Virus record (IMG/VR): IMGVR_UViG_2778261642_000006
Strand: one strand, 5' to 3'
DNA length: 42,980 nt
Source: a virus
Taxonomy: Duplodnaviria > Heunggongvirae > Uroviricota > Caudoviricetes
The notes beneath the pieces are model-generated. The model did not search any database. It had not been told where the DNA came from and was given only the letters and a program-made list of their open reading frames with translations. Positions 8,998-40,550 of this stretch are shown one piece after another. The position numbers and the translations under genes are program-made. How positions within the stretch are numbered: the stretch's first letter is position 1; each line of letters opens with the position of its first letter.

Positions 8998-9085
8998 GTG
9001 ATATAGATTTACCTTTAATTTTCTGGCGTCCTCTGCATGTTATGCCGCGTTCGCCAGGCTTGCGGTAGTAAATTCGGTTATTTAT

Positions 9086-9111
9086 GTAATAAAAACCCGC
9101 CTTAGCGGGTT
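9086..9111 (-). terminator. Intrinsic terminator after the first pL gene (tL1-like), possibly bidirectional
   Basis: AACCCGC-ctta-GCGGGTT hairpin; minus strand continues TTTTTATTAC; plus strand continues with a weaker T-rich tract. Confidence 0.65.
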
Positions 9112-9112
9112 A

Positions 9113-9556
9113 TTATTTCTTTGGATTTAGCTTTTCCATGTTCTCTGCGATCGTACCTATTCTTGACCTTATTGTTGGAACATCAATTCCTCTCTGTATG
9201 TCTACATTTAAAGACATAAGCTCTCTGCTCCATCCTGCGATCGCATCGTGAAATTGTCTTGCCCTGCTTGCTTGTCTACGTCTGCTGCTTTCAAGCTCTG
9301 TAAGCATTTGCTTTGCTTCGATCTGAGACTTGCCTTGCCCAACTCCCAATGCATCGATTGCACATTGCTTCATCTCTGCTTTTATCAAAGGGTGAAGATT
9401 TTCAGCGCCAATAAAAATTACCTCGTCTATGCTTTTAAAAAGCAGAAGGCAATCAGTAACAACTTTGGTTCTTTTATCATCACACCTTACCTCTACCGAA
9501 GGTACGCCGCCATATTGCTTAACTCTCATTGCCGTGTAAACTGTAGCACTCTTCAA
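9113..9556 (-). CDS. Hypothetical protein at the N/Nun position (not N-like)
   Basis: 147-aa ORF starting at TTG with AGGAGG RBS 5 nt upstream (or ATG 9 codons in); first gene after the pL leader; no arginine-rich N-terminal motif. Confidence 0.55.
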   Translation of the reverse strand: MKSATVYTAMRVKQYGGVPSVEVRCDDKRTKVVTDCLLLFKSIDEVIFIGAENLHPLIKAEMKQCAIDALGVGQGKSQIEAKQMLTELESSRRRQASRARQFHDAIAGWSRELMSLNVDIQRGIDVPTIRSRIGTIAENMEKLNPKK

Positions 9557-9644
9557 ATCAGCCTCCTTTTTCTTTTTCTATATCAAAAAGCTGCTTTGCT
9601 TTTTGTGACTAAAAGCAAAAAAGCCTTCTCGCTAATGAGCAGCA

Positions 9645-9706
9645 TTGCCGTTCATCCTGAACCCGCCGCGCTCCCGACGCATGGTTTAAAGACGCGCCGT
9701 TCGTCT
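9645..9706 (-). promoter_or_regulatory. Conserved leader element L (candidate nutL/put-like antitermination site)
   Basis: Minus-strand GAACGGCGCG…GCGTCGGGAGCGCGGCGGGTTCAGGATGAACGGCAATG aligns with the element after cro; followed by a stem-loop before the first pL gene. Confidence 0.45.
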
Positions 9707-9720
9707 ATGGGTTTATGATG

Positions 9721-9808
9721 TACTTAAAGTTCATTAATGTAAAGTACCAATAGTACATTTTATGGATATAAAAAGCTCACTACATCATAAGTTAGTGAAC
9801 TTTAAGGA
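9721..9808. promoter_or_regulatory. Putative OL operators / pL promoter region
   Basis: Partial copies of the OR half-site (…TTAAAGTTCA…, …ATAAGTTAGTGAACTTTAAG…) between cI and the pL leader. Confidence 0.35.
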
Positions 9809-9817
9809 AATTTATTT

Positions 9818-10525
9818 TTATCCGAATCGCTTGTAATCGATTGACTGCCTAATGAGGACTTTGGCTAGAATGTGAAGTTGCTCTTCTTCACCTTCTTCTA
9901 TGTACCATCGATCATAAGCGGCATTGTCAGAGATGACGGCAAGCCTGTTCTTTTGCATTTGCAGGCGCTTAACGTGCATTGTTTTCCCGTATACAAACAC
10001 ATAAATGCCATCGCCATCAAAACAGGTTATGGATACATCAACAAAGATCTCATCTCCCGGATTGATGGTTCCCTCCATGCTGTCACCGCGAACCGTGATG
10101 ACTTTTACGCTTTCCTGTGGCCTTCCATTAAATAAAATTCTTGCCTGCTCGGTCGTATATTCAATTGCTCTTATCTTTTCTATAAATTCATTGGAAACCA
10201 TGGTTCCTGGCCCGGCGCTCGCCTGAACATCCAATACATCAACACGATAATAATCATTTGATCTTGATAGATGATTTACCGTGATACCGTCATCATCAGC
10301 ATAGCCATGCAGATATGCAGCAGTAGTTCCCAGCACCGAAGCCAGAGATTCCATCTTGTCTTTTCTTGGTATTGACTCCCCGTTGAACCATTTACTAATG
10401 GCTTTTGGTGTGACCTTAAGCCTGACAGCTAAATCAGCCTGCCTACCATGCAAAGGTAATCCCGCTTTATCACAGGCCAGCGCAAGCCTCTGCGAGAAAG
10501 TTTCACGCTCTTTCTGTTGAACCAT
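9818..10525 (-). CDS. cI: CI-type repressor (HTH_XRE + S24/LexA-like peptidase domain)
   Basis: HTH region (…QADLAVRLKVTPKAISKWFNGESIPRKDKMESLASVLG…) and C-terminal S24 motifs (GDSMEGT…HVKRL); divergent from cro across operators; start ambiguous (in-frame ATGs near 10525, 10570, 10582). Confidence 0.8.
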   Translation of the reverse strand: MVQQKERETFSQRLALACDKAGLPLHGRQADLAVRLKVTPKAISKWFNGESIPRKDKMESLASVLGTTAAYLHGYADDDGITVNHLSRSNDYYRVDVLDVQASAGPGTMVSNEFIEKIRAIEYTTEQARILFNGRPQESVKVITVRGDSMEGTINPGDEIFVDVSITCFDGDGIYVFVYGKTMHVKRLQMQKNRLAVISDNAAYDRWYIEEGEEEQLHILAKVLIRQSIDYKRFG

Positions 10526-10589
10526 AAGTTCAACTATATTAGGTATTGACTGTACTATCAGTTCCGTCATAATATGAACCATAAGTTCA
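10517..10589. promoter_or_regulatory. OR operator region: two near-perfect 17-bp palindromes plus a degenerate middle site; pR/pRM
   Basis: TTGAACCATAAGTTCAA (~10517..10533) and ATGAACCATAAGTTCAC (~10575..10589) with TTGACTGTACTATCAGTTC between; lies between cI and cro. Confidence 0.6.
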
Positions 10590-10604
10590 CCACAGGAGAG
10601 AAGC

Positions 10605-10835
10605 ATGAACGAAGTTACGTTTGGAGAAGTTATCAAATCCGTTCGAGTTTCTGTTGTGGCTGATGTTTGTGGACTTACGCCAAAAGCCATCTATAAGTGG
10701 CTTGAGCGTGGTTCTCTGCCGCGTACCGAGTTCACTGGTGAAACCGAATATGCGGATAAGATCGCCAAGGCATCAGGCGGCAAGTACTCAGCAGCACAGA
10801 TTCGCCGTATCGGTAAACAGCAGTTTGTTATGTAA
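10605..10835 (+). CDS. cro: Cro-like repressor
   Basis: 76 aa; HTH (…VADVCGLTPKAIYKWLERGSL…); GGAGAG RBS; divergent to cI directly downstream of operators. Confidence 0.8.
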   Translation: MNEVTFGEVIKSVRVSVVADVCGLTPKAIYKWLERGSLPRTEFTGETEYADKIAKASGGKYSAAQIRRIGKQQFVM

Positions 10836-10856
10836 TAAAAATGTACTTTTAGTACC

Positions 10857-10912
10857 GAACGGCCCGGTATACGGTCGGGTGCCCGGCGTGGTCAAGGATG
10901 ACTGTCAATGGT
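10857..10912 (+). promoter_or_regulatory. Conserved leader element R (candidate nutR/put-like site)
   Basis: GAACGGCCCGGTATACGGTCGGGTGCCCGGCGTGGTCAAGGATGACTGTCAATG; ~75% identical in blocks to element L. Confidence 0.45.
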
Positions 10913-10956
10913 GCACGATAAAAACCCAAATTATTTACCTATGGAGATAGTAAGAA

Positions 10957-11256
10957 ATGACACAAGCAAGCTACAGCAAGCCAACACAGCGAGAAATTGA
11001 TCGCGCAGAAACAGATTTACTCATCAACCTGTCAACGCTTACCCAGCGCGGTCTGGCAAATATGATTGGCTGTCATGAATCGAAGATAAGCAGAACGGAC
11101 TGGAGATTTATTGCTTCGGTCTTGTGTGCTTTCGGAATGGCATCAGACATCAGTCCGATTAGCAGGGCTTTTAAGTATGCGCTTGATGGACTCACCAATA
11201 AAAAACGCCCGGTGTGCAAGACCGAGCGTTCTGATCAAATACAAATGGAATTTTAA
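10957..11256 (+). CDS. cII: CII transcriptional activator
   Basis: 99 aa; C-terminus …LTNKKRPVCKTERSDQIQMEF matches recalled lambda CII …LTNKKRPAATERSEQIQMEF. Confidence 0.9.
   Translation: MTQASYSKPTQREIDRAETDLLINLSTLTQRGLANMIGCHESKISRTDWRFIASVLCAFGMASDISPISRAFKYALDGLTNKKRPVCKTERSDQIQMEF
11198..11229 (-). terminator. OOP-like antisense RNA terminator (to) within the cII 3' end
   Basis: Minus strand reads CGCTCGG-tcttgcaca-CCGGGCG followed by TTTTTTATT, the same position as lambda to/oop. Confidence 0.5.
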
Positions 11257-11278
11257 CAACATCCAGCGAGGTAATTAT

Positions 11279-11551
11279 ATGCGAAACAAAGGCTTTAATC
11301 CACCTGATACACACAAAGAAGTTAAGCGTTTGCGCTTCCTTCGTTCCATTGATGAAAGAACTCAAATCTCTTTTGTGAAAGTTGCCAGAACTGAGCTTCT
11401 GAAGGCTGAGGCGAGGGCGTTGCTCCCGTCTCTACCAAAAGAGGAGGGATATAGGCTCATTCCAAACGCATTTCTGGAAAAGCTGCTCAAAGAAGACATA
11501 TCCGTAAGTCAGTTTAACGATGTTCTTAAGGTCTTTCGTCAAGGCAGGTAG
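11279..11551 (+). CDS. Hypothetical protein between cII and the replication initiator
   Basis: 90 aa from MRNKGFNPPDTHKEVKRLRFL…; the longer track ORF (from 11111) overlaps cII. Confidence 0.45.
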   Translation: MRNKGFNPPDTHKEVKRLRFLRSIDERTQISFVKVARTELLKAEARALLPSLPKEEGYRLIPNAFLEKLLKEDISVSQFNDVLKVFRQGR

Positions 11552-11553
11552 TT

Positions 11554-12501
11554 ATGAGCAATACAGCAAAAATCTACGATTTCAGCGCCGCACACGAGCG
11601 CAGGAGCAACAGGATGGAGAACCAGAAAACTGGTTACATTCCGTTGTACCGGAGCATTCTGAAACAGTCATGGGCGAAAGATGTTTATCTTCGCACCCTG
11701 TGGGAAAACCTTCTCCTGAATGCCGCCAGAAAGCCATACAAAGCGAATTTCAAAGGTCATGAATGGCATCTGCAACCCGGTCAACTGGTTGTGACAGCAG
11801 CTGATTTAGGTCTTCAGTTATGCGACAGGCATGGCAAGCCGGCAAGCCGTGATCAGGTTGAGCGGATGCTTCAGGTTTTTGTGAAAGAGGGGATGATCTC
11901 CATTGATGGAGAGAAGCAAAAAGGTCGTGTGATCACCATCACAAATTACCATGAATATGCTCAAAAAATGGACGATTCACCCGCACATGAAGCCGCACAA
12001 ACAACCGCACATGATGCCGCACATGATGAAGCCAGTAATGGCGCGGCATTCAGCGTACATGCCGCACATGAAAGCGCACATGAAGCCGCACAAACAACCG
12101 CACATCATGAACAAGAAGGTATTAACAAGAATATAAATAATACCCCCCTACCCCCCAATGGGGGAGGCGATGGGCAGGTTAAACCTGAACGTCGCAAGGC
12201 AGAACGCATCGACTACGAATCCTTCCTGAACGCCTACAACACCGAAGTCGGTGACAGACTTCCACACGCTGTTGCGGTCAACGAGAAACGCAAACGCCGC
12301 CTGAAGAAAATCATCCCGCAACTGAAAACGCCAAACGTGGACGGTTTCAGAGCGTATGTCAGGGCGTTTGTGCATCAGGCCAAGCCGTTTTACTTCGGAG
12401 ACAACGACACGGGCTGGGTGGCAGATTTTGATTACCTGCTGAGGGAGGATTCGTTAACGGGAGTTCGGGAAGGGAAGTTTGCAGACAGGGGGATTGCATG
12501 A
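11554..12501 (+). CDS. Replication initiator (lambda O / P22 gene 18 analogue)
   Basis: 315 aa; position after cII; contains the iteron array and its repeated [10 protein letters not shown] peptide; stop overlaps helicase start (ATGA). Confidence 0.75.
11975..12165. repeat. Putative origin of replication: CCGCACATGA-type iterons, AT-rich tract, C6/G5 inverted repeat
   Basis: At least 8 copies of (C)CGCACATGA(A/T)G within ~130 bp, then aagaatataaataata and cccccctaccccccaatggggga. Confidence 0.6.
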
Positions 12502-13874
12502 AACAGGATATCGAAGCGAGCGTTATCGGTGGCCTGCTGATTGGTGGATTAACACCAATTGCCAGTGACGTTCTGGCAACGCTTGAGCCGGAAGCGTTTT
12601 CAATTCCGCTCTACCGGAAAGCCTTCGAGGTTATCCGCAAGCAGGCGCGAAACAGAAATTTAATCGACGCGCTGATGGTTGCCGAGGCGTGCGGAGAGGA
12701 ACATTTCACGTCAATCCTGATGACCAGCAAAAACTGCCCGAGTGCCGCAAACCTGAAGGGATATGCCGGAATGGTCGCGGATAATTATCACCGCCGTCTG
12801 GTGCTGGAAATCATGGATGAAATGCGTGAACCAATTCAGAGCGGAACCATCGACGCATCGAGTCAGGCGATGGATGAACTTGTAAAGCGTCTTTCAGCCA
12901 TCAGAAAGCCCCGTGACGAGGTTAAACCTGTACGGTTAGGGGAAATCATCACTGACTACACTGACACGCTTGACAGGCGTCTGAGGAACGGAAAAGAGTC
13001 AGATACCCTGAAGACCGGAATCGAAGAACTTGACGCCATCACCGGAGGGATGAACGCAGAAGACCTGGTGATAATCGCCGCTCGTCCTGGTATGGGGAAA
13101 ACCGAGCTGGCGCTGAAGATTGCCGAAGGCGTTGCAAGCCGTGTTATTCCTGGTTCTGACGTCCGGCGCGGAGTATTGATTTTCTCGATGGAAATGAGCG
13201 CATTGCAGATTGCAGAGCGAAGCATCGCCAACGCCGGGAGGATGTCGGTTAGCGTGCTGCGAAATCCTGCATCGATGGATGACGAAGGCTGGGCGCGCGT
13301 TGCTAACGGCATGAGTCAGCTTGCAGATTTGGATGTATGGGTGGTCGATGCCTCGCGGTTATCGGTCGAAGAAATACGCTCAATCGCAGAACGGCACAAA
13401 CAGGAAAATCCAAACCTCTCACTCATCATGGCGGATTATCTTGGCCTGATTGAGAAGCCGAAAGCAGACCGCAACGACCTCGCAATTGCTCACATCTCCG
13501 GAAGCCTGAAGGCGATGGCGAAAGACCTGAAAACGCCTGTTATCTCCCTGAGTCAGCTTTCGCGCGATGTTGAGAAGCGACCAAACAAACGCCCGACAAA
13601 CGCAGATTTGCGTGATTCAGGAAGCATTGAACAGGACGCAGACTCAATCATCATGCTCTATCGGGAAGCAGTATATGACGAGAACAGTAGCGCCGCGCCA
13701 TTTGCTGAAATCATTGTGACAAAAAACCGTTTTGGCTCACTTGGTACGGTTTACCAGCGGTTCTGCAACGGACACTTTGTTGCATGTGACCAGGATGAAG
13801 CCAGACAGATTTGCACAGCATCAAATGCACCTGCTGCGCGTGGCAGACGATATGCACAAGGGGCTGACGTATGA
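12498..13874 (+). CDS. Replicative DNA helicase, DnaB-like
   Basis: 458 aa; Walker A ([12 protein letters not shown]) and DnaB-family motifs (…[17 protein letters not shown]…[13 protein letters not shown]…). Confidence 0.9.
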
Positions 13875-13900
13875 CCATCTACATCACTGAGCTAATAACA

Positions 13901-13930
13901 GGCCTGCTGGTAATCGCAGGCCTTTTTATT
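13901..13930 (+). terminator. Intrinsic terminator after the helicase (tR2-like)
   Basis: GGCCTGC-tggtaatc-GCAGGCC followed by TTTTTATTT. Confidence 0.7.
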
Positions 13931-13946
13931 TGGGGGAGAGTAAATC

Positions 13947-14153
13947 GTGGTTGAGTTGATTTTTTCTGCATTGAGGATTCTCGGTGCTATGTGGATGGTG
14001 GCGACGTTCATTGTGGTTGCCAGCAGTTTTGTCCGGCTGGTAGGCGAAGGTAAAGACCTGGTTGGTGTGCTTTTCGGTAGCATTTTCCTGTGGGTGATTA
14101 TCGGTGTTGCGCCTGTAGCTGTAGCAAAAATGGCGTGGCGTTTTGTGAGTTGA
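13947..14153 (+). CDS. Small two-helix membrane protein
   Basis: 68 aa, GTG start after GGGGGAGAG RBS; two hydrophobic segments. Confidence 0.4.
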   Translation: MVELIFSALRILGAMWMVATFIVVASSFVRLVGEGKDLVGVLFGSIFLWVIIGVAPVAVAKMAWRFVS

Positions 14154-21259: not shown

Positions 21260-21480
21260 TAGCGATAATTTTACTCATCATCCTTCACATCTGGCTCTGT
21301 AGACAGGGTGGTGATCACTTCTGGAGTAAATCCAGATTAAACATCTCATTGCTGATGCTTGATATTGAGCATCTGGCGCGCGGTAAGGGGCTGCGTTGAG
21401 ATAAGAGCCAGTCATCACAAACACCAGGATTTAGCCTCGCATTCGCGGGGTTTTTTATTCCCAACTCCATAGGTAATTTT

Positions 21481-37898: not shown

Positions 37899-40550
37899 AT
37901 GACAGACATTACAGCCAATGTTGTAGTGAGTATGCCTTCGCAACTCTTCACTATGGCGCGTTCTTTTAAAGCCGTAGCCAATGGCAAAATTTATATCGGT
38001 AAAATTGACACTGACCCGGTAAATCCTGAAAACCGGATTCAGGTTTATGTGGAGAACGAAGACGGCTCTCACGTTCCTGTATCGCAGCCAATCATCATTA
38101 ACGCTGCCGGATATCCTGTATATAACGGACAGATTGCCAAATTCGTTACTGTACAGGGCCATTCTATGGCTGTTTATGATGCGTATGGTTCGCAGCAGTT
38201 CTATTTTCCAAACATTCTGAAATATGATCCTGATCAGTTTAAACAAGAACTAGAGAATAAATTTAACAATGGTTCAACTCCATCAATTATAAATTATAAG
38301 TACGGTCTTCCAGAAGAAGTAGACGGAGCAACACAAAGGACGCTACAGGATAAACTTGATGACCATGTAAATGTTCGCGATTTTGGTGCAAAAGGGGATG
38401 GCATTACTGACGATACAGACGCAATAACAAGTGCCATCATTTACTGCGCATCTAACGGAAAACGCCTGAAGTGGGATTCTGGTGTGTATTTGATTAGCCG
38501 CATAAAATGCGGCGGGGATAATTATAACTATGACTGGGTAGCTGATGGCAAGGTTGTCTTAAAGTCAACCGCAAAAGAGCCTCTTGGCCCAAACTGGATT
38601 GATGATTATTTCATAAGACTCGAAGGTGGAGATGCCACGCCAATTGACTATAATTCAACAATAAATCCTGGTGACACATCAATATCAATTAACTCAGCAT
38701 ACTCTGTTGATGCAGGCGATATAATTATGATTCATGGCAATCGCTTAATTCAGACAGATAATAGAGGACAGGCTTGTGAAGGTGAAATGCATGTTGTTAC
38801 TGCTTTTGATAATGCAACAAAAAAAGCGGAGATATCAGGTGCATTTTATTTTTTCTACTCTGCGAGCAATGATTACTCAACGACCGTAACAGCATCTGTA
38901 TCCGGAGGTGAATTCTCATTTGGTAATGATGCAACATTAACAAAACAATACAATCAGGTAAAAGTAACAGGTGTCACCGGAGCTAACGCCGGAACATCAA
39001 GATACATAACTCATTGGGATTACGACACTAAAACAGCAAAATTTGAATATGCTCAGGGACCATTCCCGTTTAAACCATCTGTTGGAGACGTGTTTAAAAT
39101 CACAAGAAAGGCAAATATATATAAAAGAAAACCATGCTACGGCAGAATTGTTGGTGATTTCAATTTTGAAAGACCTGTCACGCAGAACGCATCTCCTGGT
39201 GATTTGGGGTTCCGTGGTCTTGTGATAGATGGCGCTGTTGATATGCATATAGAAGGAATAAAACTAATCGGCTTTTCAGAAACTGGAATTTTTCTTGAGT
39301 CATGCTACAGAACGAAAATAATAGAACCATATATTGAATACTCAAACCGTGCATATGATTTAACAAACGGCACTGGTTATGGTGTTGAAATATACAATAG
39401 CAGCTATTGCACAGTCGTGGATATGATAGCATTTGCTTGCAGGAGGGGGCTTGATGTAAGCGGGACTCAAATGGTATCACTGTATAATAACATTATAAAT
39501 CCAACGATGATGGGTGGTGGAACTGCATATGATGGAGTTAAATTTTTCCCTGATGGCGATACAAGAAATTCATGTTGCGGTGGACACGGCCCATCATACG
39601 AAACAACTTTTACAGGCGGCAATTCAGTCAATTTGTATTATGCTGGTGTAATACGCGGATTAAATGAAGTGTATGATGGAATGAACGCCAGGGGATTTAG
39701 CGGCCCGGCTCCTTTTTTTGTAAGATATAGTGGTGGTGGGTTCACGATTCAGAACTGTAATTATATTGATGGTTTTACTGAGATGTCTTTGCCATACAAC
39801 TTGAGGTACAAACCTGTGAATGCAACTCAACGTAATCACAGACCTCTTGTTTTTATTGAAACAACTCTGGCACAGACAGACAGAAACTCTTACTATAAAG
39901 AACTTCCTGTTGTTATTAAAAATAATACCGCAAGGACTGTTCTCAAGGGCTTTTTACGTTTTGAGGTTAATGATGGCCTCACCCCTCTAATCCAAAATAT
40001 TTATTTTGGTGGTAATTTATGTATGGCGAACCCAGAAACATCAGACTCTGTATCAGGGCAAACAGAGGCAGTAATGGTTTATTCATCTGTTCCTGGTGCA
40101 ATAATTGTTCGAAATTTCCATGATCTTGGCGGTAACAGAATTGTTCCTGTTGGAGCAGGATACAGATACTGCGGTATGTTCAACACGCCAGATGGAATAG
40201 CAGGAACAATAGTTCAACCAGACGGAAAATATCTAATAACACTTGAAGCCAACAAATCTACAAGTATCCTTGTTGGTGGATACGTACCATGTGTTCGCCT
40301 TGATATGCACGACATACTTGATATTCATGGGGTAATTGCAGTTGGTGTTCTTATTCATCGTGGTGAGGCAATTGATTTTTCTCCTTTAAAAGAAATTAAT
40401 AAGCAAAATGTTGTATTGAAAACCGGAGTTCTTTCAGATAATGATGGTGATGAAAATAACTTAAATATTTCGTTTGACTTTGCAACCATATATTTAAGCA
40501 ACAAGATGCCAAATAAGATTCAACTATCTATTGAAGTATCAGGAGTGTAA
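37899..40550 (+). CDS. Tailspike protein: P22-type head-binding domain plus long divergent beta-helix receptor-binding domain
   Basis: N-terminus [59 protein letters not shown]… matches recalled P22 gp9 N-terminus; 883 aa total. Confidence 0.9.

What the first reader, a model, noticed from the sequence alone, without database searches (positions are those of the whole stretch)
11198..11290. OOP-like antisense RNA terminator embedded in the cII 3' end
A 7-bp GC stem with U-tract on the minus strand sits over the codons for …TNKKRP…, the same place as the lambda oop terminator. The promoter should lie ~77 nt away inside the next gene's start region; I could not identify a convincing -35/-10.
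Basis: partly seen in the sequence, partly recalled or inferred. Interest (0 to 1): 0.35.

Follow-up and report, generated by a model that had tools for sequence, protein, structure and literature searches.

The report
Short-form oop antisense RNA gene
This is the phage's copy of the classic lambda "oop" antisense RNA gene, which opposes the lysogeny activator CII; it is an ordinary, well-known element, here in a shorter allele that lacks lambda's 5' hairpin and LexA-type box.

Summary
A 12-bp hairpin (11232..11202) plus a U-tract sits on the minus strand over cII codons K82-S92. It is the third most stable of 145 T-tract hairpins in the window. The 3' ~45 nt are near-identical to lambda oop/tO. 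A covariance model built only from lambda-type oop sequences hits the window once, at 11270..11199(-), with 47.6 bits and E~5e-8.

It aligns with lambda's mutationally validated pO -10 and overlaps the next gene's ATG, as in lambda. [C/T]ATAAT is kept in 106 of 108 unique junctions, ahead of at least 8 unrelated downstream genes.

The predicted RNA is ~69 nt (11267->11199), not 77. Its 5' ~24 nt are a different, 12-nt-shorter allele. This allele lacks the CTGT-N8-CCAG LexA-like box (54/54 long forms have it, 0/52 short forms) and lacks stem-loop I.

The most likely function is that of lambda OOP: cis-antisense pairing with cII mRNA, RNase III cleavage, less CII and a bias towards lysis. No transcript data exist for the short form. 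The element is ordinary and of low interest; the short allele is a minor point worth testing.

The parts
11199..11267 (-). Predicted oop-type antisense RNA, ~69 nt: 5'-GCUGGAUGUUGUUAAAAUUCCAUUUGUAUUUGAUCAGAACGCUCGGUCUUGCACACCGGGCGUUUUUUA-3'
   Evidence: The CM built from long-form oop hits 11270..11199(-) at 47.6 bits, E 5.4e-8, the only hit in 43 kb. The 3' end is placed by alignment to the lambda oop 3' end at 38599. The 5' end is inferred: G at 11267 is the 7th nt after the -10 hexamer, and lambda +1 is the 8th. No transcript data are available.
11202..11232 (-). tO-type intrinsic terminator hairpin (12-bp stem, 7-nt loop)
   Evidence: dG -16.5, z -4.4. Rank 3 of 145 T-tract hairpins in the window. 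The stem arms are identical to the lambda tO arms; the loop is 3 nt longer, an allele shared with imm21 and UPF_BP1.
11199..11205 (-). U-tract of the terminator (U6 then A); this is AAA AAA (K82 K83) on the coding strand
   Evidence: Sequence; invariant in alignment A1.
11274..11279 (-). pO -10 hexamer TATAAT, overlapping the A of the ATG (11279-11281) of the next gene
   Evidence: Aligns with lambda ATTATG 38683-38688. In lambda, the LK (38683) and MH (ATTAT->CGCGC) mutations abolish oop function (PMC5869508; PMC3349717). [C/T]ATAAT is present in 106 of 108 unique junctions. Only 11 TATAAT occur in 86 kb of both strands.
11297..11302 (-). Candidate pO -35, TGGATT (3/6 to TTGACA), 17-bp spacer; lies inside the downstream ORF
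   Evidence: This is weak, as in all family members (lambda TTGAGT is 4/6). Inferred only.
11199..11256 (.). 58-bp overlap of the antisense RNA with the cII 3' end (last 19 codons plus stop); a further 11 nt cover the cII-orf intergenic spacer up to the orf's Shine-Dalgarno
   Evidence: and the sequence. The lambda overlap is 55 nt including the stop (PMC3349717).
10957..11256 (+). cII (target gene), 99 aa
   Evidence: Pfam PF05269 Phage_CII, 121 bits; phrog_191 CII-like activator. The C-terminal ...LTNKKRP..TERSDQIQMEF matches the lambda CII tail.
11279..11551 (+). 90-aa ORF (phrog_2519, unknown function) whose start region carries pO
   Evidence: It corresponds in position to the O start in lambda and to orf48/gp53-type small ORFs in P22/HK97-type phages.

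Best explanation
Window 11199-11302 (minus strand) is the pO-oop-tO unit of this P22-like lambdoid coliphage.

Proposed mechanism:
1. A sigma-70 promoter (TGGATT-17-TATAAT) sits on the start codon of the gene after cII and fires leftward from about G11267.
2. The transcript runs ~69 nt antisense across the cII-orf spacer and the last 19 codons of cII.
3. It stops at a strong intrinsic terminator embedded in codons K82-S92.
4. By homology with lambda OOP, the RNA pairs perfectly with the 3' end of the pR-derived cII mRNA. The duplex is cut by RNase III and cII mRNA decays. Less CII means less pRE/pI activation and a shift towards lytic growth.
5. Convergent pO/pR transcription may also damp rightward read-through into the replication genes.

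What is shown here: homology of the terminator, 3' body and -10; position; uniqueness in the window; conservation across many junctions.

What is inferred: that the promoter fires in this allele, the exact 5' end, RNase III dependence and the phenotypic effect.

Unlike lambda, P22 and BTP1, this allele lacks the CTGT-N8-CCAG LexA-type box at +1 and the 5' stem-loop I. Its expression is therefore predicted to be SOS-independent.
For: Homology:
- blastn to lambda 38591-38649, 87% identity, E 2e-10. HK629 and HK633 records annotate lambda oop under the match.
- Lambda oop 38675->38599 (77 nt) was extracted and aligned.
- A CM trained only on 25 long-form oop RNAs gives one hit in 43 kb on either strand, 11270..11199(-), 47.6 bits, E 5.4e-8, with all terminator pairs intact.

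Terminator:
- 12 bp, dG -16.5 kcal/mol, z -4.4; rank 3 of 145.

Promoter:
- TATAAT aligns with lambda's -10, which is validated by the LK and MH mutations.
- [C/T]ATAAT is kept in 106 of 108 unique junctions. It sits between the SD and ATG of at least 8 unrelated downstream genes and in at least 5 different spacer contexts.
- BTP1 has the same -10 and 5' region joined to a non-homologous terminator. This argues that the antisense unit is selected, not just the CII tail.
- A site scoring 9/12 or better in the expected register has a chance of ~0.002.

Tail versus body:
- Window vs lambda cII shows 44% nt and 33% third-position identity in the body, against 84% and 68% in the tail.

Transcripts in relatives:
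- P22 oop, 63 nt, by sRNA-seq (PMC13397905).
- OOP-BTP1 in transcriptome and dRNA-seq data (PMC7067206).

Mechanism in lambda:
- PMC12197685, PMC3349717, PMC2327240, PMC5869508, PMC3985674.
Against: - There is no transcript evidence for the short 5' allele. The phages with experimental oop RNAs (lambda, P22, BTP1) all have the long 5' form.
- The -35 is weak (3/6).
- In lambda a 45-bp pO is nearly inactive, and sequences 45-94 bp upstream inside O are needed (PMC5869508). Here that region lies in an unrelated gene.
- Within this cII allele family, third-codon diversity in the overlap (0.146) is not lower than in the gene body (0.068). That test gives no sign of extra RNA-level constraint.
- The stems are invariant, so there is no compensatory covariation.
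- Conservation of the CII tail could partly reflect protein function, since the C-terminal residues affect CII activity and regulation. It could also reflect its role as a recombination linker between modules.
- In lambda, OOP has at most a minor role in removing CII after SOS induction (PMC2327240).
Confidence: 0.85

Rival explanations
1. Relic or passenger. The hairpin and the -10-like hexamer persist only because they are embedded in constrained sequence: the CII C-terminal tail, and the SD-ATG spacer of the next gene. This conserved stretch also serves as a recombination linker between immunity and replication modules. In the short allele, pO is too weak to make a functional amount of RNA.
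For: - Weak -35.
- Lambda pO needs upstream O sequence that is absent here.
- No excess third-position conservation in the overlap within the allele family.
- No covariation.
- Mosaic joints fall exactly in this segment, with long and short 5' forms, two terminator-loop alleles and several downstream genes combined freely.
Against: - ATAAT is retained in 106 of 108 junctions across at least 5 different spacer contexts and at least 8 downstream genes. An SD-ATG spacer has no coding or ribosomal reason to be ATTAT.
- The short allele has improved the -10 to a perfect TATAAT.
- BTP1 keeps the promoter and 5' part with a non-homologous terminator and still makes the RNA.
Confidence: 0.1
2. Promoter-centred function. 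What matters is pO firing against pR (transcriptional interference, or control of transcriptional activation of the nearby origin), with the RNA product being secondary. This has been proposed for lambda's 'dual promoter system'.
For: - In lambda, pO activity modulates pR read-through and plasmid replication independently of oop RNA level (PMC3985674).
- Here pO lies ~700 bp upstream of a block of 12-nt repeats inside the Phage_rep_O gene, which look like origin iterons.
Against: - This does not exclude the antisense role. It does not explain why a strong terminator and the cII overlap are conserved so precisely.
- OOP supplied in trans from plasmids blocks CII function in lambda and in hybrids (PMC3349717 and PMC5869508).
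Confidence: 0.2
3. A chance hairpin in coding sequence with no relation to oop.
For: Terminator-like sites are only ~2-fold enriched over shuffles in the local scan.
Against: - E 2e-10 homology to lambda oop.
- A unique CM hit at E 5e-8.
- Rank 3 of 145.
- The same element is found in hundreds of phages and prophages.
Confidence: 0.01

Closest known systems
Bacteriophage lambda OOP RNA (pO-oop-tO; 77 nt, lambda 38675->38599)
   Same: - Position and orientation are the same: antisense to the last ~19 codons of cII plus the spacer, with the promoter on the ATG of the next gene.
- The terminator arms and U-tract are identical, and the 3' ~45 nt are ~90% identical.
- The -10 is homologous.
- The CII tail is the same, ...LTNKKRP..TERS(D/E)QIQMEF.

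   Different: - The RNA is ~69 nt rather than 77.
- The 5' ~24 nt are a different allele, 12 nt shorter, diverging from the last cII codon and stop onward (TTT TAA vs TTC TGA).
- There is no CTGT-N8-CCAG LexA-like box.
- Stem-loop I is absent. Its 3' arm CUGGAUUU has become UUGUAUUU through two synonymous changes.
- The terminator loop is 3 nt longer (an extra codon in CII).
- The -10 is TATAAT rather than CATAAT, and the -35 is TGGATT rather than TTGAGT.
- The downstream gene is a phrog_2519 ORF, not O.

P22 oop (63 nt, antisense to c1) and OOP-BTP1 of Salmonella prophage BTP1
   Same: Both are P22-like phages with the same gene order (cro-cII/c1-small orf or O-like-DnaB-type helicase). Both make an antisense RNA over the cII/c1 3' end from a CATAAT -10 at the next gene's start, and both RNAs have been detected experimentally.
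   Different: P22 and BTP1 carry the long 5' form with the CTGT..CCAG box, joined to a non-homologous terminator and c1 tail. The window has the opposite combination: a short 5' form with a lambda-type terminator.
oop-like sequences of Stx-converting phages and HK-series lambdoid phages
   Same: The 141-nt junction is 100% identical in many Stx2a phages and in O121:H19 prophages. Reviews already state that oop-like sequences occur in the cII-O regions of Stx phages (PMC5488031; PMC12197685). HK629 and HK633 records annotate oop.
   Different: The papers I could read treat Stx-phage OOP as the 77-nt lambda-like RNA. I found no description of the short, box-less allele and no transcript mapping for it.

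Membership tests
lambdoid oop antisense RNA (pO-oop-tO) | [quoted passage not shown] | tested here: met
   The target ORF is Pfam Phage_CII at 121 bits. The predicted RNA overlaps its last 58 nt including the stop. The geometry is the same as in lambda (PMC3349717).
lambdoid oop antisense RNA (pO-oop-tO) | Sequence homology to lambda oop | tested here: met
   87% identity over 59 nt, E 2e-10. The CM from long-form oop scores 47.6 bits, E 5.4e-8, with a single hit. Homology is strong for the 3' ~45 nt and weak for the 5' ~24 nt.
lambdoid oop antisense RNA (pO-oop-tO) | Self-terminating at an intrinsic terminator (tO) inside cII codons | tested here: met
   12-bp stem plus U6; dG -16.5, z -4.4; rank 3 of 145. 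The arms are identical to lambda tO.
lambdoid oop antisense RNA (pO-oop-tO) | pO promoter with its -10 at the start codon of the gene after cII, homologous to the mutationally defined lambda -10 | tested here: met
   TATAAT 11279..11274 aligns with lambda ATTATG 38683-88. It is conserved in 106 of 108 junctions. Promoter activity itself was not tested.
lambdoid oop antisense RNA (pO-oop-tO) | 77-nt RNA with two stem-loops (5' stem-loop I plus the terminator) | tested here: not met
   The predicted RNA is ~69 nt. Only a 4+2-bp 5' hairpin is predicted, against 10-11 bp in lambda, and variants break it rather than compensate. P22 oop is also not 77 nt (63 nt), so this is a lambda-specific trait and not a family-defining one.
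lambdoid oop antisense RNA (pO-oop-tO) | LexA-binding sequence in oop-pO (reported for lambda) | tested here: not met
   CTGT-N8-[A/C]CAG is present in 54 of 54 long-form and 0 of 52 short-form junctions. The only match in the window is at 21291. The existence of a LexA site in lambda oop-pO is stated in PMC5869508. Placing it at -2..+14 is my inference from the motif.
lambdoid oop antisense RNA (pO-oop-tO) | The RNA is actually made, and it lowers cII expression through RNase III | not testable with these tools
   Experimental support exists only for lambda, P22 and BTP1. None was found for this allele.
Rfam-curated RNA family | A match reaching the gathering score of any Rfam 15 model | tested here: not met
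   No hit at the locus even at E<=10. Rfam appears to hold no oop family, so this says nothing against membership.

The most novel reading that the evidence does not exclude
The short 5' allele may be a functionally distinct regulatory version of oop. It lacks the LexA-type box (which also resembles a DnaA box) and stem-loop I, and it has a consensus -10. It would then be expressed constitutively, or in proportion to gene dosage, instead of being SOS-gated. Its stability and polyadenylation behaviour could also differ. Its 3' 45 nt match lambda-type oop, so it could act in trans on the cII mRNA of other lambdoid (including Stx) phages in polylysogens. That would shift their lysis-lysogeny choice and, indirectly, toxin-phage behaviour.
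Probability: 0.3. Interest if true: 0.35.

Novelty: new member of a known kind. Interest (0 to 1): 0.18.

Why it matters
The main value is for annotation. Rfam has no oop model, and PGAP labels only the two flanking CDSs in the 673 of 5426 complete E. coli genomes that carry this junction. This classic regulator therefore goes unannotated.

Biologically, oop tunes CII and hence the lysis-lysogeny decision. The survey shows two freely recombining 5' alleles, of which only one carries the LexA-type box. The box-less allele is the one found in many Stx2a and O121:H19 prophages. If the difference is functional, it would be one small determinant of how these prophages respond to SOS-inducing conditions.

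None of this changes the textbook picture.

Tried and rejected
1. **Rfam scan** at E<=10 over 9000-14000 gave nothing at the locus. The only nearby weak hit (STnc370, 30 bits against a gathering score of 54) is an unrelated terminator at 9071-9121.

2. **Extra constraint in the overlap.** I sampled 64 unique cII loci by protein similarity, so they were not selected on the hairpin. Third-position diversity was 0.146 in the overlap against 0.068 in the body (Mann-Whitney p 0.92). The test gives no support. The sample is too closely related (>=90% aa), and the overlap is a recombination joint.

3. **Compensatory covariation in the terminator.** The stems are invariant, so there is none to count.

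4. **A conserved alternative 5' hairpin in short forms.** UGGA/UCCA is only 4 bp, and natural variants disrupt it without compensation. I rejected it.

5. **Direct transcript evidence via BTP1 and P22.** Both turned out to have the long 5' form, so they do not vouch for the short one.

6. **Species-level genome scan for host range.** The hits in Bradyrhizobium, Planctomycetota, Shewanella, Pseudomonas and others are tiny contigs, or ~48.4-48.5-kb contigs at ~1x coverage, plus one cloning vector. I read these as lambda control DNA or vector contamination, which says nothing about host range.

7. **Literature search for oop work in Stx phages.** The search 'oop' + 'Shiga toxin-converting' + 'polyadenylation' returned nothing in the held library. 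PMC3640518 mentions LexA only in another context.

8. **Rightward terminator.** The plus-strand hairpin was rejected as one because it has no U-tract and is weaker.

Full report
**Context**

The window is a mosaic P22-like (Lederbergvirus-type) coliphage or prophage. Its best whole-region relatives are Kapi1, CUS-3, Huey and JEP4, at 31-42% coverage and ~95-97% identity.

Around the finding the gene order is:
- cI-like repressor, 9818-10690 (-)
- cro-like gene, 10605-10835 (+)
- cII, 10957-11256 (+) (Pfam Phage_CII 121 bits; phrog_191)
- a 90-aa ORF, 11279-11551 (phrog_2519, unknown function)
- a Phage_rep_O gene, 11554-12501
- a DnaB-type helicase, 12498-13874

**The observation**

On the minus strand the sequence 5'-AGAACGCUCGGU CUUGCAC ACCGGGCGUUUU UUA forms a 12-bp stem (6 G-C) with a 7-nt loop at 11232..11202. 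A U6 run follows at 11205..11200.

It lies over cII codons K82-S92, and the U-tract corresponds to the two Lys codons AAA AAA.

The hairpin alone folds at -16.5 kcal/mol, with z = -4.4 and 0 of 200 shuffles as stable. It ranks third among all 145 runs of at least 5 T on both strands of the window. The plus-strand version is weaker and has no U-tract, so termination is leftward only.

**Identity**

Rfam has no matching family, so I tested homology directly.

- Sensitive blastn of 11180-11320 against 50,697 phage records found 168 records. In lambda, window 11191-11252 matches 38591-38649 at 87% identity, E 2e-10. The HK629 and HK633 records annotate 'lambda oop RNA' under the match.
- I extracted lambda oop (38675->38599, 77 nt, 5' G) and its upstream region from J02459. 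I then aligned the minus strands of 12 phages, anchored on the cII stop.
- The terminator arms, the U-tract and the body ...UCCAU.UG.AUUUG.U.AGAACGCUCGGU...CCGGGCGUUUUUU are invariant or nearly so.
- A covariance model built only from 25 unique lambda-type (long) oop RNAs, none from the window's class, finds exactly one hit in the 43-kb window on either strand. The hit is 11270..11199 (-), 47.6 bits, E ~5e-8, with every terminator pair formed.

In lambda the pO -10 is ATTATG (38683-38688; CATAAT on the oop strand), 7 nt upstream of +1. The LK point mutation and the MH change (ATTAT->CGCGC) abolish oop function (PMC3349717; PMC5869508).

In alignment A1 this hexamer is the invariant ATAAT. In the window it is a perfect TATAAT at 11279..11274. 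It overlaps the A of the next gene's ATG, just as lambda's overlaps the O start.

The best -35 is TGGATT (11302..11297, 17-bp spacer, 3/6). The total of 9/12 equals that of lambda's TTGAGT-17-CATAAT.

The window holds only 11 TATAAT in 86 kb of both strands. A site scoring 9/12 or better in the register predicted from lambda has a chance of ~0.002.

For a wider sample I scanned IMG/VR for the terminator core and also collected loci by CII protein similarity. Of 108 unique junctions, 106 carry [C/T]ATAAT between the Shine-Dalgarno and the ATG of whatever follows cII. That covers at least 8 unrelated N-termini and at least 5 different spacer contexts. A Shine-Dalgarno-to-ATG spacer has no other obvious reason to be ATTAT.

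BTP1 has the same -10 and 5' region fused to a non-homologous terminator, and an OOP RNA was seen there in transcriptome data. P22 oop was recovered by sRNA-seq as a 63-nt RNA. Together these argue that the antisense unit is what is conserved, not merely the CII tail.

**How the window differs from lambda**

From the last cII codon and stop onward (TTT TAA vs TTC TGA), the 5' ~24 nt of the RNA are a different allele that is 12 nt shorter. The terminator loop is 3 nt longer, adding one codon to CII, an allele shared with imm21 and UPF_BP1. With +1 at G11267 (the 7th nt after the -10; inferred) and the 3' end at 11199 (by alignment), the RNA is ~69 nt, not 77.

Two lambda features are missing.

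1. **The LexA-type box.** The motif CTGT-N8-[A/C]CAG spans -2..+14 in lambda as CTGTTGATAGATCCAG. It is present in 54 of 54 long-form junctions, with a variable centre and fixed CTGT/CCAG ends. It is absent from 0 of 52 short forms, and no such motif lies near oop in the window. PMC5869508 states that a LexA-binding sequence lies within oop-pO, citing Lewis et al. 1994. Equating it with this motif is my inference.

2. **Stem-loop I.** Lambda OOP folds a 10-11-bp 5' hairpin. The window RNA has only a 4+2-bp one, and natural variants break it without compensation. The 3' arm of stem-loop I (CUGGAU, codons I-Q as ATC CAG) is intact in 24 of 25 long forms but only 14 of 32 short forms. In the rest it is changed by synonymous substitutions (ATA CAA, as in the window). 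Fisher p is ~4e-5 on unique variants, which are not phylogenetically independent. This fits a constraint on stem-loop I that is relaxed once the 5' arm is gone.

**Mechanism**

Shown here: homology, position, terminator strength, conservation of the -10, and a perfect 69-nt complementarity to the cII 3' end and spacer, which follows from the cis arrangement.

Taken from lambda work: OOP pairs with cII mRNA, RNase III cleaves the duplex, cII expression falls and lytic growth is favoured. OOP supplied in trans gives a cII-minus phenotype even on imm21 and lambda/P22 hybrids. pO firing also interferes with pR read-through and modulates replication.

Inferred for this window: that the promoter is active, the exact 5' end, and independence from SOS.

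**Weak points**

- There are no transcript data for the short allele.
- The -35 is weak.
- Lambda pO needs sequence 45-94 bp upstream inside O, and that region is unrelated here.
- Within the cII allele family the overlap is not more conserved at third positions than the gene body.
- The contrast between allele families is strong: window vs lambda shows 33% third-position identity in the body and 68% in the tail. Modular recombination could also produce that pattern.

**Distribution**

The 121-nt junction occurs in 673 of 5426 complete E. coli genomes. In 371 the match covers at least 80% of the query. It is exact in O121:H19 strains, and many Stx2a phages carry it at 100% identity. PGAP annotates only the two CDSs there.

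The species-level genome scan returned mostly lambda control-DNA or vector contamination in non-enteric assemblies.

**Verdict**

This is a genuine oop/tO homologue with an identifiable pO. It is a textbook element, already reported for lambda, P22, BTP1 and (as 'oop-like sequences') Stx phages. The only mildly new point is that it belongs to a common short 5' allele lacking the LexA-type box and stem-loop I. I found no description or transcript map of that allele. Interest is low.

Noticed in passing
window 11969-12123 (+), inside the Phage_rep_O gene 11554-12501: There are about nine copies of a 12-nt unit, CCGCACA[T/A]GA[A/T]G, in two blocks (11981-12030 and 12062-12111). They encode His/Ala-rich 'HEAAQTTAH' repeats. 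They look like origin iterons inside the initiator gene, as in lambda O, and lie ~700 bp to the right of pO.
   Followed up: partly
window 9071-9121 (+) and T-run at 9095 (-): A weak sub-threshold Rfam hit to sRNA STnc370 (30.2 bits against a gathering score of 54, E 0.39). It is essentially a GC-rich hairpin, AACCCGCCUUAGCGGGUU, flanked by A/T runs on both strands. It is probably a bidirectional terminator at the left edge of the immunity region.
   Followed up: no
L029, L017, L022, L051 and others (junction survey); the -35 position of pO: Several apparently unrelated genes downstream of cII share a Y-Q-(E/D)-K motif at residues ~8-11 (TACCAGGA). On the oop strand this reads TCCTGGTA and falls at the pO -35 position. 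This may be a DNA-level promoter constraint imprinted on different proteins, or a shared N-terminal module.
   Followed up: no
L213-L246 (genome-contig scan): Exact lambda-type oop terminator cores appear in assemblies of Bradyrhizobium, Planctomycetota, Shewanella, Pseudomonas, Kitasatospora, cyanobacteria and others. They sit on tiny contigs, or on ~48.4-48.5-kb contigs at ~1x coverage, and on one pSEVA plasmid. This pattern is what lambda control-DNA or cloning-vector contamination of public assemblies would produce.
   Followed up: partly
L164 (IMG/VR locus) oop region: This is a natural recombinant. It has the long 5' form, with the 5' arm of stem-loop I and the LexA-type box, but the window-type 3' arm (UUGUAUUU). 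It would have a broken stem-loop I, which shows that crossovers occur inside the oop body itself.
   Followed up: no
window 9818-10690 (-): The longest cI-like ORF (290 aa) starts well upstream of the conserved 'MVQQKERETF...' repressor start and overlaps the cro start region. The true start is probably internal.
   Followed up: no
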